Both the position numbers and the translations under genes were made by a program. The notes under the pieces were generated by a model. That model saw nothing but the letters and a program-made list of their open reading frames with translations, did no database searches and had not been told where the DNA came from. Below are positions 910 through 25,787 of a DNA stretch of 64,000 nucleotides, piece by piece (the stretch's first letter is position 1; each line of letters begins with the position of its first letter). Source of the DNA: an uncultured Thiotrichales bacterium (GTDB lineage Bacteria > Pseudomonadota > Gammaproteobacteria > UBA4575). Location: positions 280,705 to 344,704 of the forward strand of contig CAZTNC010000011.1 in the NCBI GenBank assembly GCA_964614915.1. The letters are read 5' to 3'.

Positions 910-1042
910 GTCAAATCCAGGTCTGTGTGAGCCGGTGAGGTCAGCGTGCGCACCTTCGGGCGATTGCGGACTAAAGTACGCATGACCCGCGTATCCGGTC
1001 TACAATTACACTAGCGTTGAATCTCAAGTATACCGTATCGCC

Positions 1043-9619: not shown

Positions 9620-10978
9620 TCAGGCTTTTTTGAAGCGCCAGCCGTACATCATGCGGCCGTAAAAGTTGAACCAGTGCCTCGCCTCGGCATCCTGGAACGG
9701 GTAGTCGGCACCGAGTTGCCTTGCCGTGGCCAGACCAGTCACGAAACAGGTCTCCTGGCTGTTGATCAGCGTGTGTGCGCCGCAGTGCCAGGTTCGTCTT
9801 TTCCCCTGGATGAAGCGAAACATCAGGATGAGCAGGGCCACCTGGCGCACATCATGCACGATGTGCTGGAACCACCACCGCTTGATGATCTTGTCCTCAT
9901 CGATACGGCTGATCGGGTTGTAGGTCACCAGGCAGGGCTTGTCCGAGCGTTTTGCCCAGGGCTGTTGGTTGTGCATGATGTAGGTGATCTCGTAATTGTC
10001 CGGGCGCACCCCGTACTGCTCGATGTGGTTACTGCGGGTATCGATCTCCCTGACCTCCGTGTCCGGCAGCACCGAGGCATCCGAATGTACGATCGTATGA
10101 TTATGCAGTTCGCTCTCGTAACGGACCGAGGAGAGTAGCCAGTTCTCCAGAAGGGTCGGTTGGTCCAGCATCATCAGCGTCTGGTTCGCATTGCACGCGA
10201 ACACCACGTCATCGTAGGTCTCTCTTTTCCCATTCTCGTCCTCGACGACAACCTCGTTCTCGCGCCGGTACACCTTACGGACCGGTCGCTCCAGGTAGAT
10301 CTTGTCCCGGAACTCCTTGGACAGGCTTTCGTAGATGCGCCGCGTGCCCTGGTCCCAGGACTTCATCGGCGTGGCGGTTTCGATGTCGAAGAACTCCAGG
10401 TAGCGGGAAAACAGCGCGGCCGGCATGTCGAACACGTTGGTGGCCATCAGGAAGTTGACGAACATAGGCTTGAGGATCTTGTAGCGGAAGTCGCCCGAGA
10501 AGCGCCCGAGGTTGAGCAGTGTGCCCATGCTGACGTAGTTGAACGGGTTGAGCGCATTGAGCAGGGCGGACCTCGAGCGGTTCAGTCGGCCGAACCACTT
10601 CAGGCGCCTCAGCAGTTTCTGGAACTTCTCGATTTCCGGCAGCAGCTGCCGACGGATGTCGGAGTCGAAATCGTGCGCGTAGACCCCGCCTTTGTACTTC
10701 ACGCTGTAGCTGAAGCGGGTGTCGATCAGGTCGATGCCGTATTGCTGCATGACCAGCACGATATGGTGGTAGGCTGAGGGGATACAGGCGGTGACGGAAA
10801 TATCGAACGGGATCGAGCCGCCGTCCTCCTGCGGCATGTCCACCGTGATGGCGTTGCCGCCGATCCGCGACTGGGCCTCGTAAATTCTGAAATCGAACCG
10901 CTCGGGGTGGTGGTGCAGCGCCCAGGCCACACCCAGTCCCGAGACTCCCCCACCGATAATTGCGACTTTCCTTGGCAT
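9620..10978 (-). CDS. FAD/NAD(P)-binding amine-oxidase-like oxidoreductase (COG2907-like)
   Basis: N-terminal Rossmann MPRKVAIIGGGVSGLGVAWAL...EAQSRIGGN. C-terminal RTWHCGAHTLINSQETCFVTGLATARQLG resembles the COG2907 C-terminus (recognised from memory, no search run). Start chosen at MPRKV (452 aa); the tracked ORF extends 59 aa upstream. Confidence 0.6.
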   Translation of the reverse strand: MPRKVAIIGGGVSGLGVAWALHHHPERFDFRIYEAQSRIGGNAITVDMPQEDGGSIPFDISVTACIPSAYHHIVLVMQQYGIDLIDTRFSYSVKYKGGVYAHDFDSDIRRQLLPEIEKFQKLLRRLKWFGRLNRSRSALLNALNPFNYVSMGTLLNLGRFSGDFRYKILKPMFVNFLMATNVFDMPAALFSRYLEFFDIETATPMKSWDQGTRRIYESLSKEFRDKIYLERPVRKVYRRENEVVVEDENGKRETYDDVVFACNANQTLMMLDQPTLLENWLLSSVRYESELHNHTIVHSDASVLPDTEVREIDTRSNHIEQYGVRPDNYEITYIMHNQQPWAKRSDKPCLVTYNPISRIDEDKIIKRWWFQHIVHDVRQVALLILMFRFIQGKRRTWHCGAHTLINSQETCFVTGLATARQLGADYPFQDAEARHWFNFYGRMMYGWRFKKA

Positions 10979-11171
10979 CCTCGCGACCTGCAAATCAAAG
11001 GCTGCTACTCTACTACGCTTGGCGGTTGCCTCCAACGAAATTCCATCACAGTTCGTGATGCCCATACAGCCCGGCCTGCCACGGTTATGAATCAGTGGCT
11101 TACACGGCCACGGTATTGCCAGTGGTGGACCGGTAGCGGTACCATACACGTGCATCTTGGAACGCAGGGCT

Positions 11172-12395
11172 ATGGTTAGGCGCCCGCCTTCACCGGATTG
11201 TGCAAAGCAGGAAAATCAGGACCTTCTAGACTCACATGCAGCACACCCAATGACTTCGGGACTGAGCACTTCCAATGGTTCCTCGTCGCCGCCGGTATTC
11301 GTGACCGGCGCAGCCGGGCATGTTGGCGCCAACCTCGTGCTGCGCCTGCTTGAGGACGGGGTCCGGGTACGTGTATTGCTCCGCCAAGGGGACAACAACG
11401 AGGCCATGGAGGGGCTGGAGGTGGAACGCATCTACGGGGACATCCGTGATCTCGATGACACCCGGCGTGCGCTTGAAGGTTGCCAGGGGGTCTATCATGT
11501 CGCCGCCATGATCTCCACTATCGAGGGTAACCATGCCTACCGCCGTAACATCTACGAATGCAACGTGCTGGGCACTCGCCATGTGCTGCAGGCTGCGCGC
11601 GAAGCCGGGGCCGGACGGGTGGTGGTGACGGGTTCTTTCAGTGCCGTCGGTTACGATCTGGACAACCCGTCTTTGCCCAGCGACGAGACGATGCAGTTCT
11701 ATCCCATGGAACGCACCATGCCCTACGAGCGCAGCAAGGCGCTCGTCGAGCACGAGTGCTGGCGTGCCGCAGCTCAGGGGCAGGATGTCATGGTCGCCAC
11801 CTGCTGTGCGGTGATCGGTGGTGCCGATTATTTCCCGTCGCGCCTTGGCAGAACCCTGTGCGACTATACCAACGGCAAGCTGCGTGCCTACGTGGACGGT
11901 GGATTTGAATTTGTTGCCGCGCGGGACATCGTGGAAGGGCACCTGCTGTGCATGGCGCACGGGCGCGCCGGGGAGAAGTACATTTTCAGCAGCGAGTACA
12001 AGACGATCTCCGAGATTCTTGACCTGTACGAGGAGGTTACCGGCATCTCGCGGCCCGGCCGGCGCATCCCCACGCACATGATGCTTGCCTTCTCGGAAGT
12101 GGCGAGCTTTTATCTCAGCCGCTTTCACCCGAGCTTCCCGCAGCGCTTCACGCCAGGTGCCATCCGCCTGCTGAAAAAGTGTCGCCACGCGGACACCGGC
12201 AAAGCAAAGCGCGAGCTTGGCTATTGCCCCACCAGTATCCTTGATGCGGTACACCAGGCGTACGCGTTTCACTATCACCGCGGTGCGATCCAGAACCCGC
12301 TTGCAAATCCCCCGCGCGAGGAGGCCCTGCGAGCGGTGCAACACCCCGTCTGCGGTGAGGACGTCTCCGTCGCCTCCGAAAGGGGCCCACTGTGA
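11172..12395 (+). CDS. NAD(P)-dependent 3-beta-HSD/extended-SDR family dehydrogenase, SdmB-like (candidate sterol C-4 decarboxylating dehydrogenase)
   Basis: VFVTGAAGHVGANLVLRLL Rossmann motif and a YERSK catalytic dyad. First gene of an overlapping operon with a Rieske oxygenase, a sterol reductase, CYP51 and OSC. Start is uncertain (TTG 11157, ATG 11172 or ATG 11250). Confidence 0.6.
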   Translation: MVRRPPSPDCAKQENQDLLDSHAAHPMTSGLSTSNGSSSPPVFVTGAAGHVGANLVLRLLEDGVRVRVLLRQGDNNEAMEGLEVERIYGDIRDLDDTRRALEGCQGVYHVAAMISTIEGNHAYRRNIYECNVLGTRHVLQAAREAGAGRVVVTGSFSAVGYDLDNPSLPSDETMQFYPMERTMPYERSKALVEHECWRAAAQGQDVMVATCCAVIGGADYFPSRLGRTLCDYTNGKLRAYVDGGFEFVAARDIVEGHLLCMAHGRAGEKYIFSSEYKTISEILDLYEEVTGISRPGRRIPTHMMLAFSEVASFYLSRFHPSFPQRFTPGAIRLLKKCRHADTGKAKRELGYCPTSILDAVHQAYAFHYHRGAIQNPLANPPREEALRAVQHPVCGEDVSVASERGPL

Positions 12396-13489
12396 GCGCG
12401 AGAGTGGATCCGCCTCCGGGCTTTGAGCAGGCCACCAACCTGCGCCAGCAGGTGCGCGCTACCGGGCTCGACCCGGATTACTGGTACGCCGTTGAGGAAG
12501 TGCGAAACATCAAGCCGGGCACCGTGGTCGAGGTCATCTTCTGGAAACGCTCGATTGCCCTGTATCGCTCGAACGACGGTTCGTTTCATGCGCTCGAGAA
12601 CCGCTGTGCGCATCGCCAGATCAAGCTTTCTTTGGGCGATGTGCAGGGCTGCAAGCTGGTATGCGCCTACCATGGCTGGGAGTATGATCAGGAGGGCCGC
12701 CGGGTCGACATCGTTCATGATGCCAGCAAGGGCGGTCTTCCGAAGCCCTCCATCCGGGCTTATCCCGTGAAGGTCCGTTACGGCATGGTGTGGCTGTTTC
12801 CCGGCAATCCCGAGCGTGCCGAGGAGCACCGAATCCCGGACATTCCCGAACTGGAAGGACCGGAACGCTGGGCATGTGTGCCGCTGAGCTTCACTTGGTC
12901 CGCCCACCACTCCATGATTATCGACAACGTCAGCGACTTCACACATGCTCATCTGCACCGCCGTTACCGCCCCTTTGAAGGCGCAACGCTGACCCGTTGC
13001 GAGACCATTGGCGACAACGTGCACCTGGCCTATGACACGAAGGTGGGGCGCGGGCGCATTTCAGGGCGGTTTGTCGATCACCGGCAGCTGGACACCAATC
13101 ACATGGACCTGTGCTTTGAATACCCCTACCAGTGGTCCAACACCGATGATGCGATCAAGCACTGGTTGTTCGTCTTGCCGATCGATGAGCGCACCACTCG
13201 GGTGTTCTTCATGTTCTATTTCAAGTCTCTGAAGATTCCCCTGCTGCCGGTCCATATCCCGCGTTTTGCCATGACCACGGTGTTGAAGCTGTCGAACCGC
13301 ATGCTGATCGCACCCCTGTTGGATCAGGACCGCTATGCGGTCGAAGCCGAGCAGCTGGGCTACGAGAAACACTGGGATGCAGCGCCCATCGAGTTCAATC
13401 CGGTGGTCAAGGCCTTCCAGAACGTGACCGTGCGCAAGTGGCAGGAATACCTGGCGCGCGAGGCGGAAAACGGCCGTGCCGTTGCCTGA
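12392..13489 (+). CDS. Rieske [2Fe-2S] non-heme iron oxygenase, SdmA-like (candidate sterol C-4 methyl oxidase)
   Basis: Rieske motifs CAHRQ and CAYHGW. Mononuclear iron motif D-F-T-H-A-H-L-H. GTG start overlaps the upstream stop (GTGA). It sits in the sterol operon. Confidence 0.65.
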   Translation: MSARVDPPPGFEQATNLRQQVRATGLDPDYWYAVEEVRNIKPGTVVEVIFWKRSIALYRSNDGSFHALENRCAHRQIKLSLGDVQGCKLVCAYHGWEYDQEGRRVDIVHDASKGGLPKPSIRAYPVKVRYGMVWLFPGNPERAEEHRIPDIPELEGPERWACVPLSFTWSAHHSMIIDNVSDFTHAHLHRRYRPFEGATLTRCETIGDNVHLAYDTKVGRGRISGRFVDHRQLDTNHMDLCFEYPYQWSNTDDAIKHWLFVLPIDERTTRVFFMFYFKSLKIPLLPVHIPRFAMTTVLKLSNRMLIAPLLDQDRYAVEAEQLGYEKHWDAAPIEFNPVVKAFQNVTVRKWQEYLAREAENGRAVA

Positions 13490-14576
13490 ACTCGCGGGCG
13501 AACCACTTCTGCTGTCGGGGGCAACCCTGCTTGAGTCCGCGGCCATGCTGGCGGTGTTTATCGGGGCCCTGTTCGCAGGCTCGATCCTGTTGCCCGGACA
13601 TCGCATCACCGGACCGCAGGTGGCAGGTCAGGTACGTACATATAAGCTCAACGGCTTCCTGCTGTTCTTGCTGACTGTGATCGCGGCAGGCACCGCCCAG
13701 CTCCTGGGCTGGTTTTCGCTCGCTGCGCTCTATACTCACTTTGGTGCCCTGTTCGTAGCCGCCAACGTATTCGCATTCGCCCTGTCCGCCTGGTTGTACT
13801 GGCGAGGGGTGAAGGTCCGGGAGGAACGCCCGGGGCTGTGGCGGGGCTTTTTCTTCGGCGTCGAACTCAACCCGAGTTGGCTCGGGGTGGACCTGAAGCT
13901 GTTCAGCTACCGACCCTCCCTGATCGGACTGGCCCTGCTCAACCTGTCCTTTGCCGTCGTGCAGTACGAAACCTATGGCGAACTGACCCTGGCCATGGTG
14001 CTCTACCAGGCCTTCACGTTCCTGTATGTACTCAACTACTTCCAGTTCGAACACGGCATGGTCCACACCTGGGACATCGTCAGTGAGCGTTTCGGCTGGA
14101 TGCTGGTCTGGGGCGACTATGTGCTGGTGCCGTTTTTCTACTGCCTCGCCGGCTGGTGGCTGGTTCATGCCACGGAGACGCTGTCAATGCTGGGTGCCGC
14201 AGCCATCGTCTCGCTGTTCGCGTTCGGCTTCTGGCTGTTTCGCGGCGCCAATGAGCAAAAGCACCGCTTCAAGCGTGACCCGGACGTGAAAATATGGGGG
14301 CGACCCGCCGAGACTTTGGATGGGCGCTTGCTGGTATCCGGCTTCTGGGGGATCGGGCGACATCTTAACTATACAGGCGAGATTTGCATCTACCTCTCGT
14401 TTACCCTGACTACCGGGTTCGCATCCTGGTTGCCGTACCTGCTACCGGCCTGGCTCGCAAGCCTGCTGTGGCACCGCTCCCGACGGGATGAACGCCGCTG
14501 CCGTGCCAAGTACGGAGAACTGTGGGGACGCTACAAGAAGCGGGTGCGCTATTCCATGTTGCCGTTCGTCTATTAG
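13476..14576 (+). CDS. Sterol reductase, ERG4/ERG24 family (likely delta-14 sterol reductase)
   Basis: Polytopic membrane protein. Family signatures GVELNPS (LNPR-like), LLVSGFWGIGRHLNYTGE and C-terminal HRSRRDERRCRAKYGELWGRY. GTG start at 13476; an alternative ATG lies at 13545. Confidence 0.8.
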   Translation: MPLPELAGEPLLLSGATLLESAAMLAVFIGALFAGSILLPGHRITGPQVAGQVRTYKLNGFLLFLLTVIAAGTAQLLGWFSLAALYTHFGALFVAANVFAFALSAWLYWRGVKVREERPGLWRGFFFGVELNPSWLGVDLKLFSYRPSLIGLALLNLSFAVVQYETYGELTLAMVLYQAFTFLYVLNYFQFEHGMVHTWDIVSERFGWMLVWGDYVLVPFFYCLAGWWLVHATETLSMLGAAAIVSLFAFGFWLFRGANEQKHRFKRDPDVKIWGRPAETLDGRLLVSGFWGIGRHLNYTGEICIYLSFTLTTGFASWLPYLLPAWLASLLWHRSRRDERRCRAKYGELWGRYKKRVRYSMLPFVY

Positions 14577-14584
14577 GAGCCGAA

Positions 14585-15991
14585 ATGGTGCAGCGATCAG
14601 ACAGGGTGACTACGGTGGGTTCTGCGAACCCTTCACCGCCAGACAGGGCCGTGCCCGAGATGGCCGGCGGCTGGCCGCTGATCGGCCACCTGCCGGAGTT
14701 TCTCAAGGATCCGGTCTCAATGCTGGCGCGCGGCTGGGAGGAACAGGGTGAGCTTTTCCAGTTTCGCATCGGCCCGCGCAAATTTGTGCTCTTCTCCGGG
14801 CCCGAGGCCCACGATTTCTATTTCAGAACGCCCGAGGAGCAGCTGAATGCCAAGGCCGTCTACCAGTTCACGGTGCCCATCTTCGGGCGTGGCGTGGCGT
14901 ACGACATTTCCCCGGAATTGATGGCCGAGCAGTTGGGGTTTCTGTACCCGGCGCTTCGTGAATCCGCGATGCGCAGATTTGCCCGTATCATGTTTGCGGA
15001 GACCAGCCGCTTTGCCGATGCCCTCGGCGAATCCGGAGAAATCGATCTGCCGCACGCGATGAACGAACTCACCGTCAAGATCGCAAGTCGCTGCCTGATT
15101 GGAGAAGAAGTCAGGGCACAGGTGGACACGGGGTTTGCCGAGGCCTATCACGATCTGCAAAACGGCATCAATACCTTGGGGTTCTTCCTCCCCAGGCTGC
15201 CGACCCCGGCCCATCGCACCCGCGACCGGGCCCGGCAAAAAGTGGCCGAGATCTTCAGCCGGGTCATGACGGAACGCCGGCGCACCGGAGCGCAGCCCGA
15301 CGATTTCATGCAAACGCTCATGCACGCCCGGTACAAGGATGGCCGCGCACTGAGCGACGACGAGATTACCGGCATCCTGCTGACGGTGCTGTTTGCGGGA
15401 CAGCACACGAGTGCCGTGCTCGCGACCTGGACGTTGCTAGAGCTTTTAAGAACGCCCACCTACCTGGAGCGCATCCGGGACGAGATGCAGGAGGTCTACC
15501 GCGAGAGTGCGCAGGTGAGTCTTGCGAGTCTCAAGCAGCAGGTGGCCTTGGAGCACGCCGTGCGTGAAGGGGAGCGACTGCATCCGCCATTGATCATGCT
15601 GATCCGCAAGGTACTCAAGCCCTTGCAATACAAGGGCTACAGCGTGCCGGAAGGCACCCTGGCTGTGGTGTCACCGGCGGTCTCTCATCGCTTGCCGCAC
15701 GTCTTTGCCGACCCGGAACGTTTTGCTCCAGAGCGTTTTGACCCGCCAGCCAGTGAGGACAAGCAGCACCACTTCGCCCTGATCGGTTTTGGCGGCGGCA
15801 AACACCGGTGCATGGGCAAGCATTTTGCGGTCATGCAACTGAAAGCGATCTGGACCGTGCTGCTCGATCGCTTCGACTTTTATCTCGACTCTGAATTTCC
15901 CGCCCCGAATTACGGCAGCTGGGTGACCGGTCCGGTGGAGCCCTGCCGGCTGCGCTACCGGCGACGCCCAAGCACGGGGCTGCTCCAGTGA
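14585..15991 (+). CDS. cyp51: Sterol 14-alpha demethylase cytochrome P450 (CYP51)
   Basis: Heme-thiolate FGGGKHRCMG. CYP51-specific I-helix AGQHTS. B' helix YQFTVPIFGRGVAYD. AGGAG ribosome-binding site 6 nt upstream of ATG 14585. No C-terminal ferredoxin domain. Confidence 0.85.
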   Translation: MVQRSDRVTTVGSANPSPPDRAVPEMAGGWPLIGHLPEFLKDPVSMLARGWEEQGELFQFRIGPRKFVLFSGPEAHDFYFRTPEEQLNAKAVYQFTVPIFGRGVAYDISPELMAEQLGFLYPALRESAMRRFARIMFAETSRFADALGESGEIDLPHAMNELTVKIASRCLIGEEVRAQVDTGFAEAYHDLQNGINTLGFFLPRLPTPAHRTRDRARQKVAEIFSRVMTERRRTGAQPDDFMQTLMHARYKDGRALSDDEITGILLTVLFAGQHTSAVLATWTLLELLRTPTYLERIRDEMQEVYRESAQVSLASLKQQVALEHAVREGERLHPPLIMLIRKVLKPLQYKGYSVPEGTLAVVSPAVSHRLPHVFADPERFAPERFDPPASEDKQHHFALIGFGGGKHRCMGKHFAVMQLKAIWTVLLDRFDFYLDSEFPAPNYGSWVTGPVEPCRLRYRRRPSTGLLQ

Positions 15992-17340
15992 ACGGTGCCT
16001 CGGCCCGGCGTTACGATGTAGCCATCGTCGGTGCGGGTCCGGTCGGCAGCCTGTGCGCACTGGCCCATGCACGAAAGGGCGCTCGGGTGATCCTGCTCGA
16101 AGCCAATCCCAAGGCTTCCCTGCGTCTAGCCGGCGAATGGCTGCATCCTCCCGCCGTGCGCATCTTGCGCGATCTTGAGGTTGATCTGGGCTTGCCGCTC
16201 AGCGATCCCAGGGGCAAGGGTTTTGCCGTGTTCCCGGAAGACGGTACGGAGCCGATCGTCTTTCCCTATCCGCAAGGCGCCCGGGGGCTGACCTGCGAGC
16301 ATGCCTCACTGGTCTCGAACCTGCGCGAAGCGGTCGGCTGTCACCCCGAGATCGAGTTCCTTGTTCATGCCCGCGTGCGCGAGGTCGAGGACGGCCGCCT
16401 CACGTTCAGCTACAACGGCACGGACGAAACGGTGATGGCGCCGCGCATCGTCGGTGCTGACGGCCAGGCATCGATCGTGCGTCAATCGCTGGGACTGTCG
16501 AAAAACCCGGTGATCTGCTCCCAGACGGTGGGTGTGGTTCTGAGCGGGGTGACGTTGCCGCTGGAAGGTTACGGGCATGTGTTGCTCGGTGGTCCGGGCC
16601 CCGTACTCATCTACCGTCTCGACGAGCAGCATGTGCGGTTGATCGTCGATGTCCCGCTGGAGCGCACCACGCCCCGGGACCGCATCGGGTTCCTGCTGGA
16701 TTCGTATACCGACCTGCTGCCGGGACCCTTTCGCACGGCATTTGTCGATGCATTGCGTGCCGGCCAATTCCATGTTGCCGCCAACAAGCTGAGACCACGG
16801 CTCACCTACGGGAATGCACAGCGTGTTCTGATCGGCGATGCGGCAGGACACTACCACCCAATGACGGCTATGGGAATGACTTTTGGTTTCGGTGATGCGG
16901 TGGCGCTCGCCGAGAGCGATGACTTTCGCGACTTTACCCACCAGCGCATCCGCGCTACCCGGGGTCCGGCGTTTCTCGCCATGGGACTCTATGAGGTGTT
17001 TGCCGATCACCGTGCAGAGGCAGTCGCCTTCCGACACACGATTTACCGAAGTGCCCGCACCAATACGGCGTTCAGGGACCAGACCGTGCGATTACTCGCT
17101 TGTGAAGACACTTCATCAATCCGCATGGGGATTGCCTTTGTCACGACCGTGGCGCGTGCCATCGTCGAGCAAATCCCGCGATCCTTCAACCACCTCGCAT
17201 GGCGACGAGCACGCGATGTGCTTCGAGCGATTACGATCCGGATCAGCTGGTTTTTGCGAAGCATACTGCAACTCTCCAGGGCGAGAAGCGGCAAAGGGGA
17301 ACTGGACTCCGAATCGTGGAACACGCTGGCTGGCGTGCTT
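15988..17340 (+). other. Squalene epoxidase domain of the fusion protein (approx. aa 1-450)
   Basis: Rossmann FAD motif at aa 10-25. GD-AAGHYHPMT motif at aa 283-300. Confidence 0.7.
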
Positions 17341-19428
17341 CAGATCTCCATGCCTGCCAAAGCCCGAGACCCTCAGCCCAGTCGCCCGAAGGAAGTGCCC
17401 TCCCTCGATGCCACGGCTGCACTGCAGCATGCAGTTACGCGCTTGCTGGAGCTGCAGGGCAAGGAGGGTGGCTGGGAAGGCGAGATGGTCTGGTGTCCCA
17501 TGCTGACGGCACAGTACGTATTGTTGCATTACATCATCGGCAGACCCTTGGAACCTACCCGGCGCAGGCTCGTGCTGCGCTCGTTCGAACATACCCGTCT
17601 TGAAGGGGGCACATGGGGGATGCACGAGCACTCCCGGCCCCACCTGTTCGTCACCACCCTGGTCTACGTAGCGGCGAGACTGCTCGGCATCGAACGCGAG
17701 GATCCGTTGCTCGTGCCAGCGAGACAATTCCTGCAGGCCGAGGGGGTGCTCGCCATTCCGAGCTGGGGGAAGTTCTGGCTGGCCCTTCTCAATCTATACG
17801 ACTGGCGCGGTGTCAATGCCGTGCTGCCGGAGTTGTGGAGCCTGCCGCGCTGGATTGCGCTGCATCCCTCAAACTGGTACTGCCACACCCGGCTGATCTA
17901 CATGGCCATGTCGGTGATGTATTCGCATCGGTTCCAGGCCCCGATAACTCCCCTGATCACGTCCTTGCGTGAGGAGTTGTACCCGCAGGGGTTTGACTCT
18001 GTCAATTTCTACCAGGGCCGCAACCGCCTGCGAGACGCCGACCTTTTCTCACGGCCTAGCATATGGCTTCGGATCGGCTATCGTCTTGCGCAGGTATTCG
18101 AGCGCTACCACGGGCAACGCTTTCGCAATCGGTGTGTGGAAGCGATCCTGCATCAGATTCGGTGGGAGTTGCAGACCACCAGCCATACGAGTATTTCTCC
18201 GGTCAGCGGTATCCTGAACATGCTTGCCCTGTGGCTGCGCGATCCCGACGACCCGGATCTGCACCAGGCGCTCGACCAGCTGGAAGGTTGGATCTGGGAA
18301 GACGAGGCGATGGGGGCACGTGTCACAGGTGCAAGAAGCGCCTCGTGGGATACCGGGTTTGCATTGCAGGCGCTGGCCTTGATGAGTGAAGTTGAAGGGG
18401 TAGGGGATGCCCGCATGGCGGGTGCCGAGTTTCTGTACCGACAGCAGATCACCACCAGCTTCGAAGGCTATCGCGAGGCCTACCGAAACGACCCCAAGGG
18501 CGGCTGGTGTTTTGCTGGCGGATGGCATGGCTGGCCGGTATCCGACTGTACGGCCGAGGCTGTGCTTGGACTGATCGCCACCCATCGCGAGACGACAGAC
18601 CAAACCGTGCTTCGCGATGCGATTCGGTTCATGTTGCGCAGTCAAAACCGTGACGGTGGCTTTGGCAGCTACGAATCCCAACGTTCCGTTCTCGGGCTCG
18701 AGTGGCTGAATCCTGCCGAGATGTTCGGTGAATCGATGACCGAGCATTCCTACATTGAATGCACCGCATCGTGTCTTGCGGCGTTCGCCGCCTGCCGGGA
18801 GCACTTCCCGAAACTCGCTGATCGGCAATTGATGGAGGCGATCTTGCGGGCGGATAACTGGATTCGCTGGTCCCAGGCCAGTGACGGGTCCTGGCGTGGC
18901 GTGTGGGGTGTTCAGTTCATTTATGGCACGCTGTTCGGGATCCGGGGCCTGTTGGCCACCGGTGCTGGTACCGGTGATCCGGCATTGCGCCAGGCTTGCC
19001 AGTGGTTGCTGGAGCGCCAGCGCGATGACGGCGGGTGGGGTGAACACCACAGCGGCTGTCTGAGTGGCCAATACATCGCGCATGAACAAAGTCAGGTCAT
19101 CCAGACCGCGTGGGCGCTGATTGCGCTCCTTGAGGCGGGGGATTCGAGCTGGAACGCGATTTCCAAGGGTGCTAGGTTTTTGCTCGATGCCCAGCAAGAA
19201 GACGGGTCTTGGCCCAGGCAAGACATGGCCGGGGTCTTTTTCCGCACGGCCCTGCTGGATTATGTTCTTTATCGGCAGTATTTCCCGATGCATGCGCTCG
19301 GACTCTACGAGCAGCGGCGCAGAGCCCGCCAGGATCTGACGAATCCCGTCATTCACAACGTCGCTGCAAGACCGTCTGAACCTGGAGATGCTTCAAAGTC
19401 GGCGGAGCGTTTGCGCTCCTCAGCCTAG
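15988..19428 (+). CDS. Fused squalene monooxygenase (squalene epoxidase) - oxidosqualene cyclase, 1146 aa
   Basis: N-terminal 450 aa carry FAD-binding YDVAIVGAGPVGS and the epoxidase motif IGDAAGHYHPMTAMGMTFGFGD. The C-terminal 690 aa align with lanosterol/cycloartenol synthases (AIPSWGKFWLALLNLYDWRG, catalytic VSDCTAEA, several QW motifs such as LLERQRDDGGWGE). It is one uninterrupted frame. The GTG start overlaps the cyp51 stop. Confidence 0.85.
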   Translation: MNGASARRYDVAIVGAGPVGSLCALAHARKGARVILLEANPKASLRLAGEWLHPPAVRILRDLEVDLGLPLSDPRGKGFAVFPEDGTEPIVFPYPQGARGLTCEHASLVSNLREAVGCHPEIEFLVHARVREVEDGRLTFSYNGTDETVMAPRIVGADGQASIVRQSLGLSKNPVICSQTVGVVLSGVTLPLEGYGHVLLGGPGPVLIYRLDEQHVRLIVDVPLERTTPRDRIGFLLDSYTDLLPGPFRTAFVDALRAGQFHVAANKLRPRLTYGNAQRVLIGDAAGHYHPMTAMGMTFGFGDAVALAESDDFRDFTHQRIRATRGPAFLAMGLYEVFADHRAEAVAFRHTIYRSARTNTAFRDQTVRLLACEDTSSIRMGIAFVTTVARAIVEQIPRSFNHLAWRRARDVLRAITIRISWFLRSILQLSRARSGKGELDSESWNTLAGVLQISMPAKARDPQPSRPKEVPSLDATAALQHAVTRLLELQGKEGGWEGEMVWCPMLTAQYVLLHYIIGRPLEPTRRRLVLRSFEHTRLEGGTWGMHEHSRPHLFVTTLVYVAARLLGIEREDPLLVPARQFLQAEGVLAIPSWGKFWLALLNLYDWRGVNAVLPELWSLPRWIALHPSNWYCHTRLIYMAMSVMYSHRFQAPITPLITSLREELYPQGFDSVNFYQGRNRLRDADLFSRPSIWLRIGYRLAQVFERYHGQRFRNRCVEAILHQIRWELQTTSHTSISPVSGILNMLALWLRDPDDPDLHQALDQLEGWIWEDEAMGARVTGARSASWDTGFALQALALMSEVEGVGDARMAGAEFLYRQQITTSFEGYREAYRNDPKGGWCFAGGWHGWPVSDCTAEAVLGLIATHRETTDQTVLRDAIRFMLRSQNRDGGFGSYESQRSVLGLEWLNPAEMFGESMTEHSYIECTASCLAAFAACREHFPKLADRQLMEAILRADNWIRWSQASDGSWRGVWGVQFIYGTLFGIRGLLATGAGTGDPALRQACQWLLERQRDDGGWGEHHSGCLSGQYIAHEQSQVIQTAWALIALLEAGDSSWNAISKGARFLLDAQQEDGSWPRQDMAGVFFRTALLDYVLYRQYFPMHALGLYEQRRRARQDLTNPVIHNVAARPSEPGDASKSAERLRSSA
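17350..19428 (+). other. Oxidosqualene cyclase domain of the fusion protein (approx. aa 455-1146)
   Basis: DCTAE catalytic aspartate motif at aa 853-857 (nt 18544-18558). QW repeats. The region aligns with human LSS from about residue 60 onward. Confidence 0.75.
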
Positions 19429-19468
19429 TCCCGAATAAGGAAGTGCGCGGGCACAGCGCCCGGCACGT

Positions 19469-20503
19469 TCAGTCTCTCGAAGGCAGGGGTTTTCGGGCCA
19501 GGAAGTAATACATCGGGGTAAAGATGCCGGTCTCACCCCCCTCGACCAGCGCATCCGCTCCCTCGTTCAAGATCGTACTGACCGCCCGGGTGCCTTCCGG
19601 GACCAGCTTCAGGGGCTCCAGCACCCTCAATACGATGTTCGTCAGGGCACGACCCATCGGCGTGCGAGGGATACTCGAAAGCGTCAGGTCGCGGCCCTGT
19701 AGAGCGCGGTACCAGGGAGTTTCCGGGTCCGATTCAAGGGCGAGGTCACGGGCTTCCAGAAGTTCGAATCCGGCTTCACGAAAGGCCGCACACACTTCGG
19801 TGGTGCGCGCGATATCCGGCAAGGCGTCTCCGACCTCGATATCTTTCTTGATTCTCAGGTGCTCTGCATTCTGCGGATCGAAATCATCGGTGAGGCACCA
19901 CTCGTAGCCGGCAAAGCATGCCCCCGGGCGCAGGATGCGAAAGACCTCCCGGAACGCCTCGGTCTTGTTGGGCGCGTGAGGCATGGACTCGATGGCGAAG
20001 GCGCCATCATAGCTGTCGTCCTCTTCGGGGATTTGCATGTAGTTGCCATGAATAAAACGGCACTGCGACTGGATATCCTGGGTATGCACTTTCGCGCGCT
20101 CAATCTGGTAGGCGTTATTGTTGATCCCCACAAAGCTAGCCCCGGAATAACGGGCCAGGGTGTGCATCGGGCCGCCCACGCCGCAGCCCACATCGAGCAC
20201 CTGCATCAACGGTTTCAGGTCCAGTTGGTCCGCCAGAAAATGCTCATGTCTGAGCAGCGACGCCTTGAAGCTTTCCCCCTTGCGTCGCGGAGCGAAATGA
20301 AAGGATCGCCCCCAACCGAACTCGTAAAAGTCCGTCACCAGGTCGTAGTAGTGGTTGACGAGCGACTGGTAGTGCTCTTTTCTACGCTCCGGGGAGTCGG
20401 TTTCGTGGAGTCCGGCATATTGATCGACTACCGACTTCACGTGCTCCGGGGCAAGATCCGCGAGTGAGCGAGAACTTGATCTTTTGACGGGTTCGCGGGT
20501 CAT
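19469..20503 (-). CDS. Sterol 24-C-methyltransferase (ERG6/SMT family)
   Basis: Diagnostic SMT region I YEFGWGRSFHF. SAM motif LDVGCGVGGP. Region II IESMPHAP. C-terminal sterol-MT-like domain. 344 aa. Convergent with the sterol operon. Confidence 0.8.
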   Translation of the reverse strand: MTREPVKRSSSRSLADLAPEHVKSVVDQYAGLHETDSPERRKEHYQSLVNHYYDLVTDFYEFGWGRSFHFAPRRKGESFKASLLRHEHFLADQLDLKPLMQVLDVGCGVGGPMHTLARYSGASFVGINNNAYQIERAKVHTQDIQSQCRFIHGNYMQIPEEDDSYDGAFAIESMPHAPNKTEAFREVFRILRPGACFAGYEWCLTDDFDPQNAEHLRIKKDIEVGDALPDIARTTEVCAAFREAGFELLEARDLALESDPETPWYRALQGRDLTLSSIPRTPMGRALTNIVLRVLEPLKLVPEGTRAVSTILNEGADALVEGGETGIFTPMYYFLARKPLPSRD

Positions 20504-20569
20504 CGGATGATTATGCCGGGTTCGTGCGGCTTCTCCAAATCGATGCTCAACATTATTTGACGGATTTGA

Positions 20570-20643
20570 TGGGCCCGGTAGGACTCGAACCTACGACCAA
20601 AGGATTATGAGTCCTCTGCTCTAACCAACTGAGCTACAGGCCC
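20570..20643 (-). tRNA. ileX: tRNA with CAU anticodon; sequence and synteny suggest tRNA-Ile2 (lysidine) rather than elongator Met
   Basis: 74-nt cloverleaf: 7-bp acceptor stem GGGCCTG/CGGGCCC, D arm GCTC...GAGC, anticodon loop CTCATAA, T arm GTAGGTTCGAGTCCTAC. No encoded CCA. Closely resembles E. coli ileX, which also lies downstream of rpoD. Confidence 0.85.
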
Positions 20644-20667
20644 GGACGGTTTGTCTCAAGAAGGATT

Positions 20668-22488
20668 TTATTCGATTTCCAGAAAGCTGCGTAGCTGTTC
20701 GGACCGACTGGGATGGCGAAGCTTGCGAAGGGCCTTGGCCTCGATTTGGCGGATGCGCTCACGCGTCACATCGAACTGCTTGCCCACTTCCTCCAGAGTG
20801 TGATCGGTGTTCATGTCGATCCCGAAACGCATGCGCAGCACCTTGGCTTCCCGTGGGGTGAGCGAAGCCAGTATTTCACGCGTGGCTTCACCGAGGCCCT
20901 CGGAGGAGGCGGAATCCACCGGAGACTCGATGATGACGTCCTCAATGAAGTCCCCCAGGTGCGAGTCTTCGTCGTCCCCGATCGGAGTTTCCATCGAGAT
21001 CGGCTCTTTGGCGATCTTCAGTACCTTGCGCACTTTTTCCTCGGGCATCTCCATGCGTTCGGCCAATTCTTCCGGGGTCGGTTCGCGCCCCTTTTCCTGC
21101 AGCATCTGCCGCGAGATCCGGTTCAGCTTGTTGATGGTCTCGATCATGTGTACGGGGATTCGTATCGTGCGTGCCTGGTCCGCAATCGAGCGGGTAATGG
21201 CCTGTCGAATCCACCAGGTGGCGTAGGTCGAAAACTTGTAGCCGCGGCGGTACTCGAATTTGTCCACCGCTTTCATCAGGCCGATGTTGCCTTCCTGGAT
21301 CAGGTCCAGGAACTGCAATCCACGATTGGTGTACTTCTTAGCGATAGAAATCACCAGTCGCAGGTTGGCTTCCACCATTTCTTTCTTGGCCCGGCTGGCT
21401 TTGGCCTCGCCGATCGACATGCGTCGATTGATGTCACGGATCTCACCGATAGTCAGGCCGGTTTCCTGCTCGATCAGAAACAGCTTATCCTGTTCCTTGG
21501 CAATCTCCGGTTTCAGGGCAAGCAGGCCTTTCGCATACTTGGCCCTGGATCGAGGCAGGGCGTCCAGCCAGTCGGTGCAGGATTCGTTGCCAACAAAGAC
21601 CTTGATGAAGCGGTCCCGCGGCATCTTGGCATCCTGGATACAAAGCTGGCGAATACGACCTTCATGGATGCGGATTCTGCCGATCATTTTTTTGAAGTCC
21701 CCGGTCAGGATTTCCACCATCTTGGGCGTGAGCTTGACCATGGTGAACTCGTTGGCAAGGTCCTCCCCGGCCTTGAGCCGTTTTTTAGCATCGCTGTTGG
21801 CAGACAGGAACTTCTTGTACAACCGCTGCAGTTTCCGGAAATAGGCTTGGACTTCCTTGGGATCAGGACCGGTGTCCTGCTCTTTTTCATCGACCTCATC
21901 ATCGTCGCCCACCGCGGCATTCTTGCTTTCCTGAGTGATTTGCGCCGCTGGCGGAGGGATGGCATCCGTGTCTTCGTCGAGATCCACGAACCCGATGATC
22001 AGGTCCGTCAGGCGCAACTCCTCGGATTTGACCTTGTCATAGAACGCCAGCAGCTTCTCAATGGTGGATGGATAGTGTCCGATCGCAAACAGGACCTGGC
22101 GCAGTCCCTCTTCGATGCGCTTTGCAATCTTGATTTCCCCCTCGCGGGTCAGCAGGTTCACAATCCCCATCTCGCGCATGTACATGCGTACCGGGTCTGT
22201 GGTACGGCCGAACTCGCTGTCTACAGTAGCCAGGGCTGCGGCGGCTTCCTCGACATCATCATCTGTGGCGGCGCTGTCGGTCAGCACCAGGCTGTCGGTG
22301 TCCGGGGGTTGCTCATGGACATTGATGCCCATGTCATTGATCATGCCAACAATATCTTCGATCTGCTCGGGATCCACGATACCGCTTGGCAGGTGATCGT
22401 TGACTTCCGCATAGGTCAAGTAACCCTGTTCCTTGCCTTTTGCGATAAGTTGCTTGATGCTGCTGGATTGCTGTTGATTTTCGTCCAA
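20668..22488 (-). CDS. rpoD: RNA polymerase sigma-70 factor RpoD
   Basis: [17 protein letters not shown] region 1.1 and conserved regions 2-4 (regions 2.4 and 4.2 present). Start assigned to TTG at 22488, which gives a 17-aa lead before GKEQG like E. coli; the tracked ORF begins at GTG 22536. Confidence 0.93.
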
Positions 22489-22730
22489 ATGTATACCTGC
22501 CACCCGGATTCGGGCACTCCATGAACCAAACACCACAATATATCAGGATCTGTGGGGTATGGATAGCACCCTGATGGAAATCAAGGACTTAACTTGCCAT
22601 CCAGTCCTTCTGCGGCACTCTGAAACACGAAATCGTTTGCGTGTGCGGGTTGTTTGCGAGGGTTCGGGCACAGACGCTTTGCAGTGGTATCAGTACTCAA
22701 GGCCTGCAACGGTGAACCGCATCGTTTTCC

Positions 22731-24446: not shown

Positions 24447-24596
24447 GGCAAATCAATGGGCACTGCGGTGCAGGGTTCGTTCTTGTTCACGCCCGTGGGC
24501 CGGGGTACGAGCACGTATTCCCCGATGGCGTGTGTTCGTTCCATGATGCGCCCTGCGCAAGGACAGGGTCAAGCGCTGGGCGATACCGGTGGATGC

Positions 24597-25787
24597 TTAG
24601 AAAATCTTCTCATTGAAGATGCGCTGGTGCTCGGCAATCGCGTAGCGGTCGGTCATGCCGGAGATGTAATCGGAGATCACCCGGGCACGCCCGCTGTCAC
24701 CATCCCGGCTGGCAGCCTCATTGGCCAGTCCGCGGTATTCGTCTGGCATCAGACGGGCATCCCTGAAGAACGCGACGTACAGGTCCGCTACCACTTTTGC
24801 GGCCTCGCGGTTCATGCGGTGTACACGCTCGTGACGATACAGGTGTTCTCGCAGAAAGTGCTTGAGTGCCTGGTTTTTCTCACGCATGGGTTCGCTGAAA
24901 CGGATCAGGGAGCCCGGTGCCGCACGTACCTCATCGAGGCTGCCTACCTTGGCTTCGGCAATGGCAGCCTGGCTCGCCGTGATCAGATCCGCCACCAGCC
25001 GGTTACGGATCCGGCGGATGGTCTCGTAGGTTTTCCGGCGTTGTCCAAGCTGCGGAAATTCATGTTCGACGGCATCAATGTGTAGGTCAAACAGTTCGAC
25101 TTCCCTGAGCTGGGGCACAGTGATCAGGTTGGCGCGCAGGCCGTCATCGATGTCATGGCTGGTGTAGGCAATCTCATCAGCGATATTGGCCAGTTGGGCT
25201 TCCAGGCTCGGTTGCGTGCGCTCGAGAAAGCGCCGTCCCACTGAGCCCAAGGTTCGTGCATTCTTTTTCGAGCAATGCTTGAGGATGCCTTCACGGGTCT
25301 CGAATGTCAGGTTCAAGCCCGGGAACTGCGGGTATTTCAGTTCCAGACAGTCGACCACTCGCAGGGATTGCAGATTGTGCTCGAAGCCGCCGTGCTCCTG
25401 CATGCAGCGGTTGAGGGCATCCTGGCCGGCGTGGCCGAACGGGGTGTGGCCCAGGTCGTGGGCCAGTGCAATCGCCTCGCAGAGAGGCTCATTGAGTCCG
25501 AGGCGGTACGCGATGCTGCGCGCCACCTGAGCCACTTCGATGGAATGGGTGAGGCGGGTGCGATACAGATCTCCCTCGTGATTGACGAACAACTGGGTCT
25601 TGTACTCCAGCCTGCGAAAGGCCGTGCTGTGAATGATCCGTTCGCGGTCGCGCCGGTATTCACCGCGGTGTGACGCCGGGGCCTCGGCATGTTCTCGCCC
25701 CCGACTGTCGGACTCGTGTGCGCCATACGGAGCCAGGATGGTGGATTGGACCTTGTGTACGGGGTCGGATGCCGGGATGCCTCGCAC
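24597..25787 (-). CDS. dgt: dGTP triphosphohydrolase-like HD-domain protein
   Basis: HD motif LAHDLGHTPFGHAGQ. Dgt family length and pattern. Confidence 0.85.
   Translation of the reverse strand: MRGIPASDPVHKVQSTILAPYGAHESDSRGREHAEAPASHRGEYRRDRERIIHSTAFRRLEYKTQLFVNHEGDLYRTRLTHSIEVAQVARSIAYRLGLNEPLCEAIALAHDLGHTPFGHAGQDALNRCMQEHGGFEHNLQSLRVVDCLELKYPQFPGLNLTFETREGILKHCSKKNARTLGSVGRRFLERTQPSLEAQLANIADEIAYTSHDIDDGLRANLITVPQLREVELFDLHIDAVEHEFPQLGQRRKTYETIRRIRNRLVADLITASQAAIAEAKVGSLDEVRAAPGSLIRFSEPMREKNQALKHFLREHLYRHERVHRMNREAAKVVADLYVAFFRDARLMPDEYRGLANEAASRDGDSGRARVISDYISGMTDRYAIAEHQRIFNEKIF

What the first reader, a model, noticed from the sequence alone, without database searches (positions are those of the whole stretch)
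19469..20503. Bacterial sterol 24-C-methyltransferase (ERG6/SMT family) next to the sterol operon
The protein carries the signature YEFGWGRSFHF, the SAM motif LDVGCGVGGP and the IESMPHAP region that distinguish sterol C-24 methyltransferases from other class I methyltransferases. It is convergent with the SE-OSC gene and only 40 bp from its stop. It predicts 24-methyl or 24-methylene sterols from a proteobacterium, which are normally taken as eukaryote markers.
Basis: partly seen in the sequence, partly recalled or inferred. Interest (0 to 1): 0.8.

Follow-up and report, generated by a model that had tools for sequence, protein, structure and literature searches.

The report
Sponge-symbiont bacterial sterol C-24 methyltransferase
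The gene is a genuine bacterial sterol side-chain methyltransferase sitting beside a complete sterol-making gene cluster in an uncultured gammaproteobacterium related to sponge-metagenome genomes, but this exact kind of gene and cluster was already described and tested in 2022-2025, so it is a correct but no longer novel finding.

Summary
ORF 19469-20503 (-) encodes a 344-aa protein carrying all three quoted motifs, and it is convergent with an SE-OSC fusion gene that ends 40 bp away.

- Pfam Sterol_MT_C scores 84.9 bits against a 21.7 cut-off.
- The protein is about 40-41% identical to yeast ERG6 over its full length.
- All 25 residues reported as conserved in functional SMTs are present.
- It is 73-75% identical to sponge-symbiont and coral-reef bacterial SMTs tested in vitro by Brown et al. 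2023.

The gene closes an ~11-kb cluster: flavoprotein, sdmB, sdmA, ERG24, CYP51, SE::OSC, SMT. The cluster lies between housekeeping genes. It recurs at about 60-85% protein identity in MAGs labelled as many different phyla.

This architecture, its spread by horizontal transfer, and in vitro SMT activity are already published (Kelly 2022; Brown 2023; Brown & Welander 2025).

New detail for this protein: yeast positions 81/83/249 are Tyr/Phe/Asp. Gly249 is reported as necessary for 24-isopropyl formation. I therefore predict 24-methyl(ene) sterols, possibly 24-ethyl, and not 24-isopropyl. Activity, substrate and in vivo products remain untested.

Novelty: already known. Interest is low to moderate.

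The parts
19469..20503 (-). Sterol C-24 methyltransferase (ERG6/SMT family), 344 aa. Yeast positions 81/83/249 are Tyr60/Phe62/Asp226.
   Evidence: ORF, translation and motifs, Pfam Sterol_MT_C 84.9 bits plus class I MTase domains, 25/25 conserved functional-SMT residues and 40-41% identity to ERG6, 73-75% identity to tested bacterial SMTs.
19429..19468 (.). 40-bp spacer between the convergent SE::OSC and SMT genes; contains a GC-rich hairpin
   Evidence: Coordinates. The hairpin folds at -20 kcal/mol but is not better than shuffles (z -1.4 and -0.65), so a terminator role is only inferred.
15988..19428 (+). Fused squalene epoxidase::oxidosqualene cyclase, 1146 aa (SE about aa 1-440, OSC about aa 470-1146)
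   Evidence: Pfam SE, FAD_binding_3, SQHop_cyclase_N and SQHop_cyclase_C; NCBIfam osq_cycl 741 bits; catalytic motif HGWPVSDCTAE at aa 843-857. The same fusion is implied in Brown et al. Supplementary Data 1, where ERG1 and ERG7 hit one gene, and 'fused SMO/OSC' appears in their Methods.
14522..15991 (+). CYP51-type sterol 14-alpha-demethylase (P450), 489 aa
   Evidence: Pfam p450 213.8 bits; heme motif FGGGKHRCMG, I-helix AGQHTS and B'C-loop YQFTVPIFGRGVAYD (that these are CYP51 signatures is from my own knowledge).
13476..14576 (+). ERG24-type sterol C-14 reductase, about 350-366 aa (start codon uncertain)
   Evidence: Pfam ERG4_ERG24 256.6 bits.
12392..13489 (+). SdmA-like Rieske oxygenase (bacterial C-4 demethylation)
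   Evidence: Pfam Rieske plus VanA_C; NCBIfam 4beta-methylsterol monooxygenase SdmA 411 bits, below the 600 equivalog cut-off.
11157..12395 (+). SdmB-like NAD(P)-dependent SDR (bacterial C-4 demethylation)
   Evidence: Pfam Epimerase and 3Beta_HSD; NCBIfam SdmB 299 bits, below the 600 cut-off.
9620..11155 (-). Amine-oxidase-like flavoprotein of unknown role, divergent from sdmB. Probable accessory member of the cluster.
   Evidence: Pfam Amino_oxidase and NAD_binding_8; no NCBIfam equivalog; best PDB relative LkcE, E=5e-22. A 72-92% identical homologue lies within the ~10-kb flank in about 24 of 80 loci from several phyla. It is absent in close relative L003.
20570..20643 (-). tRNA-Met(CAT) between rpoD and the SMT gene. 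It marks the right-hand edge of the sterol cluster and is an integration site in a close relative.
   Evidence: ARAGORN. The same tRNA occurs in L001-L004 and L009. In L001 a 9-kb integrase element sits in it with a ~45-nt duplication.

Best explanation
The gene encodes a SAM-dependent sterol C-24 methyltransferase of the ERG6/SMT family. It belongs to the bacterial SMT clade that is widespread in sponge-symbiont genomes.

It is the last gene of an ~11-kb sterol cluster in an uncultured gammaproteobacterium whose nearest relatives are MAGs with sponge-metagenome names.

Proposed pathway (inferred from domain content):
1. The SE domain epoxidises squalene.
2. The fused OSC domain cyclises it to a protosterol.
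3. CYP51 and ERG24 remove the 14-methyl group.
4. SdmA and SdmB remove C-4 methyl(s).
5. The SMT transfers a methyl group from SAM to C-24 of the delta-24 side chain.

The product would be a 24-methylene or 24-methyl (C28) sterol, with a possible second methylation to 24-ethyl(idene).

Because position 249 (yeast numbering) is Asp and not Gly, it should not make 24-isopropyl sterols.

No C-24(28) reductase is in the cluster, so the side-chain double bond is probably retained.

Shown here: family membership, motif and residue content, cluster context, and relatedness to tested enzymes. Inferred: activity, substrate, order of steps, and product.
For: - Pfam Sterol_MT_C 84.9 bits against a 21.7 cut-off, plus class I MTase domains. 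All 30 aligned homologues carry the same domains.
- 40-41% identity to yeast ERG6 over the full length. The 25 positions listed in the 2025 preprint were all correct in my recalled ERG6 and all match in the window protein (identity).
- This matches the 41-42% identity to ERG6 reported for published cluster-adjacent symbiont SMTs.
- 75% identity to the S. foetidus LXNI01004480 SMT and 73% to the P. ficiformis LXNJ01014139 SMT. Each is the only SMT of a cluster that Brown et al. Fig. 3 shows as containing a functional SMT.
- 74-75% identity to the T. swinhoei Chromatiales and coral-reef Nitrospira SMTs that were tested.
- 8 of 10 symbiont SMTs tested methylated desmosterol in vitro.
- Cluster genes are identified. 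About 60 of 80 related loci carry all five operon genes (sdmB to SE::OSC) next to the SMT.
- The Asp249 rule: G249D mutants lose C30 products. The window protein has Y81/F83/D249.
Against: - No enzymology, lipid data or expression data exist for this protein or organism.
- 11 of the bacterial SMTs tested by the Welander lab were inactive in vitro. Four of these showed no deviation at the conserved positions, including L118, which is also Y/F/D. Sequence alone therefore cannot guarantee activity.
- SdmA and SdmB score below the NCBIfam equivalog cut-offs.
- The OSC specificity residues are mixed (His/Val), so the protosterol, and hence the true SMT substrate, is unknown.
- No squalene synthase lies in the 64-kb window.
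- The structure model was too poor to inspect the active site (pLDDT 53.8).
Confidence: 0.85

Rival explanations
1. The protein is an SMT-family member that is catalytically inactive, or active only on a substrate not yet considered, so it contributes no side-chain-alkylated sterols on the usual test substrates.
For: [quoted passage not shown] Four of them had no deviation at the conserved positions. One of those, the Beatty hot-spring SMT (L118), has the same Y/F/D pattern as the window protein.
Against: - All 25 conserved residues are intact.
- The gene is kept next to the sterol operon in about 60 of 80 loci, with 78% mean column identity in a 30-sequence alignment.
- Kelly et al. report purifying selection on the core cluster genes ERG24, CYP51 and LSS.
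- The closest tested relatives (73-75% identity) come from clusters reported to contain functional SMTs, whereas L118 is only 54% identical.
Confidence: 0.09
2. The enzyme is an SMT-family methyltransferase with a different regiochemistry or a host-derived substrate. For example, it could methylate C-26 of a codisterol-type sterol, contributing to aplysterol-type or 26-methyl sponge sterols, rather than performing a plain C-24 methylation of the bacterium's own sterol.
For: - No 26-SMT has been identified, and Brown et al. flag sponge and bacterial SMTs as candidates.
- The closest loci include a MAG (L003, SB0662_bin_53) whose name I recognise as from Aplysina (the host is from my own knowledge).
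- The major sterol of Aplysina aerophoba is aplysterol.
- Region III differs from the eukaryotic consensus: ESMPHAP instead of EATCHAP.
- The Chlamydiae example shows that bacterial SMTs can exist without a de novo pathway.
Against: - The ESMPHAP variant is the commonest form of the clade (72 of about 177) and is shared with tested homologues L088, L041 and L023_1.
- The functional SMTs in Brown et al. gave C-24 alkylated products.
- The gene is physically linked to a full de novo pathway.
Confidence: 0.04
3. It is a non-sterol class I methyltransferase (cyclopropane fatty-acid or mycolic-acid synthase-like, or UbiE-like), or a eukaryotic (sponge or algal) gene mis-assembled into a bacterial contig.
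For: Pfam CMAS (48.7 bits) and Ubie_methyltran (37.1 bits) exceed their gathering scores. The best PDB sequence hits are non-sterol methyltransferases such as MitM.
Against: - The Sterol_MT_C hit is specific and stronger.
- CFA, mycolic and UbiE NCBIfam equivalogs score 10-fold or more below their cut-offs.
- The PDB search returned only non-sterol methyltransferases and one weakly matching 231-aa chain named 24-sterol C-methyltransferase (6f5z, E=6e-8), so it does not discriminate.
- The gene is uninterrupted and has GC3 0.72, like its neighbours.
- It lies 66 bp from a bacterial tRNA and 164 bp from rpoD, and the same arrangement recurs in independent MAGs, including megabase-scale contigs.
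- Whokaryote classed all tested contigs of this kind as prokaryotic.
Confidence: 0.01

Closest known systems
Sponge-symbiont bacterial SMTs in sterol gene clusters (Brown, Olagunju, Giner & Welander 2023, PMC10070321), e.g. A. aerophoba JGIcombinedJ30088_10000835, P. ficiformis LXNJ01014139, S. foetidus LXNI01004480 and the T. swinhoei Chromatiales MAG
   Same: - Same gene set, and in the clusters with numbered gene IDs the same order: SMT next to a fused SMO/OSC gene, then CYP51, ERG24, sdmA and sdmB.
- Same identity to ERG6 (about 41-42%).
- 73-75% protein identity to the tested enzymes I could retrieve.
- Same Region I-IV motifs.
   Different: - This particular protein has not been tested.
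- It carries Asp at position 249, whereas the propylating A. aerophoba enzyme carries Gly.
- The window has a single SMT, whereas the A. aerophoba, T. swinhoei and Nitrospira examples have two.
- Here the cluster abuts tRNA-Met(CAT) and rpoD.
Clusters of steroid genes (CSGs) of Ircinia sponge microbiomes (Kelly et al. 2022, PMC9531527)
   Same: - ERG24-CYP51-LSS core.
- DFR-like (sdmB) and 'hypothetical' (sdmA) genes at the 5' end on the same strand.
- SMT on the opposite strand at the 3' end.
- Found in 10 phyla including Gammaproteobacteria, with evidence of HGT and purifying selection.
- My survey reproduces this: about 60 of 80 loci, with cluster proteins at about 60-85% identity across phyla.
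   Different: Nothing essential differs. The within-lineage mosaic seen here (SMT 75% versus flanks 90-93% nucleotide identity to L004) is a finer-scale illustration of the reported HGT.
Saccharomyces cerevisiae Erg6p (sterol 24-C-methyltransferase)
   Same: - 40-41% identity over the whole length.
- All 25 conserved residues.
- Asp at position 249 and Tyr at position 81, as in this mono-methylating enzyme.
   Different: - Phe rather than Tyr at position 83.
- Region III is ESMPHAP rather than EATCHAP.
- The N-terminus is about 21 residues shorter.
- It is bacterial and encoded in a cluster.
Propylating bacterial SMTs (Chlamydiae sp. SMT, Ap_sym_SMT; Brown & Welander 2025 preprint)
   Same: - Same family.
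- Shares Phe83 and four of the eleven residues flagged as typical of propylating enzymes: S68, A152, N318 and E350.
   Different: It lacks Gly249, which the preprint reports as necessary for C30 products, so it is not predicted to be a member of this functional subclass.

Membership tests
Sterol C-24 methyltransferase (ERG6/SMT) | C-terminal sterol methyltransferase domain (Pfam PF08498 Sterol_MT_C) | tested here: met
   84.9 bits against a 21.7 cut-off, aa 280-339. Present in 30 of 30 aligned homologues.
Sterol C-24 methyltransferase (ERG6/SMT) | Class I SAM-binding fold with the Region II motif D-x-G-x-G-x-x-G-P | tested here: met
   LDVGCGVGGP at aa 103-112. Methyltransf_11, _25 and _31 hits. 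D125, G127, G129, G132 and P133 all match.
Sterol C-24 methyltransferase (ERG6/SMT) | Sterol-binding Region I (Y-E-[YF]-G-W-G-x-x-F-H-F) | tested here: met
   YEFGWGRSFHF at aa 60-70.
Sterol C-24 methyltransferase (ERG6/SMT) | Region III Glu195 and Region IV Gly217 (yeast numbering) | tested here: met
   E172 and G194 align to E195 and G217. Region III reads AIESMPHAP, the commonest variant of the bacterial clade.
Sterol C-24 methyltransferase (ERG6/SMT) | All 25 residues conserved among experimentally functional SMTs (Brown & Welander 2025) | tested here: met
   25 of 25 are identical in a MAFFT alignment to ERG6.
Sterol C-24 methyltransferase (ERG6/SMT) | Full-length homology to characterised SMTs | tested here: met
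   40-41% identity to ERG6. 73-75% identity to bacterial SMTs tested in vitro from L088, L089, L041 and L023. The contigs were matched to the paper by name or length.
Sterol C-24 methyltransferase (ERG6/SMT) | SAM-dependent methyl transfer to C-24 of a delta-24 sterol | not testable with these tools
   This needs a lysate or purified-enzyme assay with GC-MS or NMR.
Sterol C-24 methyltransferase (ERG6/SMT) | Genomic association with sterol biosynthesis genes (supporting, not defining) | tested here: met
   SE::OSC, CYP51, ERG24, sdmA-like and sdmB-like genes are adjacent. The arrangement is conserved in about 60 of 80 loci.
24-isopropyl-forming (propylating) bacterial SMT subclass | Glycine at yeast position 249 (necessary but not sufficient) | tested here: not met
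   The window protein has Asp226 at this position. G249D mutants lose C30 products.
24-isopropyl-forming (propylating) bacterial SMT subclass | Phenylalanine at position 81 and/or 83 | tested here: met
   Tyr at 81 and Phe at 83.
Cyclopropane fatty-acid / mycolic-acid synthase (CMAS) | Score above the curated family cut-offs for CFA or mycolic-acid synthase equivalogs | tested here: not met
   NCBIfam CfaB 39.8 against 650, PRK11705 36.9 against 400, mycolic_MTase 24.2 against 390. Pfam CMAS at 48.7 bits passes its gathering score but is weaker than Sterol_MT_C and is shared by all SMT homologues scanned.
Sponge-symbiont cluster of steroid genes (CSG; Kelly et al. 2022) | ERG24-CYP51-LSS core on one strand, DFR-like and hypothetical genes at the 5' end, SMT or FDFT1 on the opposite strand at the 3' end | tested here: met
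   Gene order and strands. Published description.

The most novel reading that the evidence does not exclude
The SMT is a swappable cassette inside an otherwise stable sterol cluster. Recombination between co-resident sponge symbionts would exchange SMT alleles that differ at active-site position 249 (Asp, Asn, Gly, Ser or Thr). This would tune how many carbons are added to the side chain, or even shift methylation to C-26, so symbiont populations would jointly shape the unusual alkylated sterol profile of their host.

The evidence does not exclude this:
- The SMT of close relative L004 is only 75% identical in nucleotides where the flanks are 90-93%.
- L004 carries Asn249.
- Position 249 switches at least 20 times on a 95-sequence tree, even between proteins 96% identical.

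However, position 249 ranks only 38th of 344 columns for variability, so it is not an outlier. No product data exist.
Probability: 0.08. Interest if true: 0.7.

Novelty: already known. Interest (0 to 1): 0.27.

Why it matters
Side-chain-alkylated steranes (ergostane, stigmastane, 24-isopropylcholestane) are read as eukaryote or sponge fossils, so bacterial SMTs linked to complete sterol pathways weaken that inference. That point was made and tested in vitro by Brown et al. 2023. The spread of the cluster through sponge microbiomes was shown by Kelly et al. 2022.

This window adds another gammaproteobacterial example, closely related to sponge-metagenome MAGs, with clear chromosomal context (tRNA-Met/rpoD flank). 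It also adds a residue-based prediction: Asp249 implies C28 or C29 products and not 24-isopropyl. It does not change the picture.

It remains useful as a candidate for expression. It could also help test whether Asp versus Asn at position 249 predicts one versus two methylations.

Tried and rejected
- **Structure:** AlphaFold2 on a 30-sequence alignment gave mean pLDDT 53.8 and pTM 0.51. The alignment was too shallow (all sequences at least 73% identical). I ran no fold search because the matches would be meaningless.
- **PDB sequence search:** it returned only generic class I methyltransferases, plus one weakly matching 231-aa chain named 24-sterol C-methyltransferase (6f5z). It was uninformative for family assignment.
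- **NCBIfam:** no hit passed its cut-off for the SMT, and none of the 25 hits shown was an SMT model. It was useful only to reject CFA, UbiE and mycolic-acid equivalogs.
- **Island boundaries:** I found no att-like direct repeat between the tRNA and the left edge, no integrase in the window, and no GC break. Insertion of the sterol cluster at the tRNA is therefore not demonstrated.
- **Terminator in the 40-bp spacer:** the hairpin is not better than shuffles, and the consensus scan found none there.
- **Promoter:** the promoter-like site at 20537-20510 ends 6 nt before the ATG. I treated it as unreliable.
- **Per-enzyme products:** the products of the closest tested homologues are in figure images only and are not in the held text or supplements. 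I could only infer that the single SMTs of the P. ficiformis LXNJ01014139 and S. foetidus clusters are functional, from the Fig. 3 legend.
- **Position 249 as a hot spot:** it has 20 changes against a median of 6 but ranks only 38th of 344. I rejected it as an outlier.
- **OSC product specificity:** the residues are mixed (His/Val) and the third marker motif was not found. The product is left unassigned.
Full report
**Observation**

It is a 344-aa ATG-initiated frame on the minus strand at 19469..20503. Its translation contains YEFGWGRSFHF, LDVGCGVGGP and IESMPHAP.

The + strand gene that ends at 19428 is a 1146-aa fusion. It has a squalene-epoxidase/FAD domain followed by both oxidosqualene-cyclase domains (Pfam). 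It scores 741 bits on NCBIfam osq_cycl. The two genes are convergent and separated by 40 bp, as stated. No second SMT copy exists in the 64-kb window.

**What the protein is**

- Pfam gives a specific Sterol_MT_C hit of 84.9 bits against a 21.7 cut-off, on top of generic class I methyltransferase domains. The cyclopropane/mycolic-acid synthase model scores lower, at 48.7 bits.
- NCBIfam returned no passing hit for the SMT, and none of the 25 hits shown was an SMT model. All CFA, mycolic-acid and UbiE equivalogs fall 10-fold or more below their cut-offs.
- The PDB search found only generic methyltransferases, plus a weak hit to a 231-aa chain named 24-sterol C-methyltransferase.
All 28 matched.
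- The window protein is 40-41% identical to ERG6 over its whole length. It carries every one of the 25 residues that the preprint reports as conserved among experimentally functional SMTs.
- That identity equals the 41-42% reported for published cluster-adjacent symbiont SMTs.

**Relatives and source**

- More than 3400 database proteins match at E<=1e-20. The best is 95% identical.
- In the species-representative genome collection, 300 stretches encode a relative. The best 80 are all from uncultured MAGs.
- From my own knowledge, many have sponge-project names (SB06xx, APA, COS and RHO bins; Porisulfidus, Poriferihabitaceae, Palauibacter).
- Their labels are Gammaproteobacteria, Alphaproteobacteria, Nitrospirales, Binatia, Thermodesulfobacteriota, Opitutales, Gemmatimonadota and Acidobacteriota. 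Identity to the window SMT is 71-81%. Several lie on multi-megabase contigs, some labelled as chromosomes, so mis-binning is an unlikely explanation.
- Four loci (L001-L004) share the rpoD (L002-L004 also dnaG) flank at 91-99% protein identity and are the window's own gammaproteobacterial lineage.
- The exact protein is on record once, on a 2.7-kb Logan contig from run SRR16090826.

**Surroundings**

The operon upstream of the SE::OSC gene encodes, in order:
- an SdmB-like SDR;
- an SdmA-like Rieske oxygenase;
- an ERG24-type C-14 reductase;
- a P450 with CYP51 signatures.

A divergent amine-oxidase-like flavoprotein (9620-11155) precedes it.

Outside this ~11-kb block everything is housekeeping. 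On one side lie aceE, aceF, alanine dehydrogenase, phoX and an FMN-dependent dehydrogenase. On the other side lie a tRNA-Met(CAT), rpoD, dnaG, dGTPase, aroB and aroK.

tblastn shows that about 60 of the 80 related loci carry all five operon genes (sdmB to SE::OSC) beside the SMT, at about 60-85% protein identity regardless of phylum.

**Comparison with the literature**

- Kelly et al. 2022 (PMC9531527) described 'clusters of steroid genes' in 115 of 537 Ircinia-symbiont MAGs from 10 phyla. The core is ERG24-CYP51-LSS. DFR-like and hypothetical genes lie at the 5' end, and SMT or FDFT1 lies on the opposite strand at the 3' end. They reported HGT and purifying selection.
- Brown et al. 2023 (PMC10070321) showed the same clusters in A. 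aerophoba, P. ficiformis, S. foetidus and T. swinhoei symbionts and a coral-reef Nitrospira MAG. In their Supplementary Data, ERG1 and ERG7 hit one and the same gene, which is the SE::OSC fusion.
- They showed that 8 of 10 symbiont SMTs methylate desmosterol in vitro. Three bacterial SMTs make 24-isopropyl sterols.
- By contig name or length I could identify four of their tested contigs among my loci: L088, L089, L041 and L023. The window SMT is 73-75% identical to those enzymes and shares their Region I-IV sequences. This includes the ESMPHAP variant, which is the commonest form in the clade.

The kind of gene, its cluster, its cross-phylum transfer and its activity are therefore already known.

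**Mechanism and product prediction**

I infer this pathway:
1. Squalene is converted to oxidosqualene by the SE domain.
2. Oxidosqualene is converted to a protosterol by the OSC domain.
3. CYP51 and ERG24 carry out 14-demethylation.
4. SdmA and SdmB carry out C-4 demethylation.
5. The SMT carries out SAM-dependent methylation at C-24.

The OSC carries HGWPVSDCTAE. As I recall the specificity residues, this combines a cycloartenol-type His with a lanosterol-type Val. The protosterol, and hence the true SMT substrate, cannot be assigned.

The preprint reports that Gly249 (yeast numbering) is necessary for C30 products, and that Phe81 or Phe83 enhances them. G249D abolished C30 in both enzymes tested. 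It also abolished C29 in one of them.

The window SMT is Tyr81/Phe83/Asp249. I therefore predict 24-methyl or 24-methylene sterols, possibly 24-ethyl, and not 24-isopropyl.

No ERG4- or DHCR24-type reductase is in the cluster, so the side-chain double bond is probably kept.

All of this is inference. Eleven tested homologues were inactive in vitro, four of them without deviation at the conserved positions, so activity is likely but not assured.

**Finer observations**

- *Mosaic within the lineage.* Against L004, nucleotide identity is 90-93% in the flanks and the left half of the operon. It is 84-85% in SE::OSC and only 75% in the SMT. Against L003, the SMT is 93% identical but CYP51 is 79.5%. 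L004 carries Asn249.
- *Position 249 across the clade.* Among 95 clade members it is Asp in 56, Asn in 31, Gly in 3, Ser in 3 and Thr in 2. It changes at least 20 times on a neighbour-joining tree, even between proteins 96% identical. It ranks only 38th of 344 columns, so it is variable but not exceptional.
- *The tRNA as an integration site.* In L001 a 9-kb element lies between the SMT and the tRNA. It carries a tyrosine integrase, a second integrase and a restriction-modification pair, and it is flanked by a ~45-nt duplication of the tRNA 3' half. For the sterol cluster itself I found no att repeat, no integrase and no GC break.

**What led nowhere**

- The AlphaFold model was poor (pLDDT 53.8), so I ran no fold search.
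- The spacer hairpin is not significant.
- Per-enzyme product tables are only in figure images.

**Verdict**

It is one more member of a published, experimentally sampled clade, found in a published cluster architecture. Its residual value is as a well-contextualised candidate for testing the residue-249 rule and the cassette-exchange idea.

Noticed in passing
window 27648-37289 (+), 37343-38239 (-), 38324-39061 (-): A 3213-aa single-module type I PKS (KS-AT-DH-cMT-ER-KR-ACP-KS by Pfam domain order) is followed by an alpha/beta hydrolase and a 4'-phosphopantetheinyl transferase. From my own knowledge it resembles the sponge-symbiont 'sup/swf'-type PKS linked to methyl-branched fatty acids. I did not test this.
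   Followed up: partly
window 9620-11155 (-): A 511-aa amine-oxidase-like flavoprotein is divergently transcribed from sdmB. It has no NCBIfam equivalog, and its best PDB relative is LkcE (E=5e-22). A 72-92% identical homologue lies within the ~10-kb flank in about 24 of 80 loci from several phyla, but it is absent in close relative L003. It is an unassigned, possibly sterol-modifying accessory gene that is not annotated in the published clusters.
   Followed up: partly
window 20570-20643 (-); L001 826-902 and about 9894-9941: A tRNA-Met(CAT) lies between rpoD and the SMT gene. In relative L001 a ~9-kb integrative element has inserted into this tRNA. It carries a tyrosine integrase, an HTH protein, a second integrase, a DNA methylase and a SmaI-like nuclease. 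The insertion leaves a ~45-nt duplicated 3' half next to the SMT. The site is an active integration hot spot in this lineage.
   Followed up: yes
window 9921-24999 versus L004, L002 and L003: The lineage shows a recombination mosaic. L004 is 90-93% identical in nucleotides in the flanks and in sdmB-cyp51. It is 84-85% in SE::OSC and 75% in the SMT. L003 shows the reverse pattern, with the SMT at 93% and cyp51 at 79.5%. This suggests cassette-like exchange of cluster genes between symbionts.
   Followed up: partly
L009 about 610-1509 (-); also L005, L006, L023, L028, L044, L046, L048, L057, L058, L065: Many related loci carry a second or third, more divergent SMT-like copy (40-71% identity) near the first. 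L009, from the window's own lineage, has one between rpoD and the main SMT, and my 610-1600 translation of it contained stop codons. The window has only one copy.
   Followed up: partly
L028, L083 and L084 (SMT at 10001-11017): Three clade members carry Gly at yeast position 249 together with Phe81 and Phe83: Nitrospira sp. bin75, MKWU01000439 and A. aerophoba Ga0209021_1000731. This is the combination linked to 24-isopropyl formation. They are candidates for further propylating SMTs.
   Followed up: no
window 15988-19428 (+), aa 843-857: The OSC active-site motif reads HGWPVSDCTAE. As I recall the specificity residues, it combines a cycloartenol-synthase-type His with a lanosterol-synthase-type Val. 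The cyclisation product of this widespread fused enzyme is therefore not predictable from sequence.
   Followed up: partly
window 47204-48091 (+) and 49239-50141 (-): There is an additional small class I methyltransferase (UbiE/Methyltransf_11-like, no sterol domain) and an alternative sigma-70 family factor. They sit among housekeeping genes (ftsX, ftsE, ftsY, ctaA) and are unrelated to the sterol cluster.
   Followed up: no
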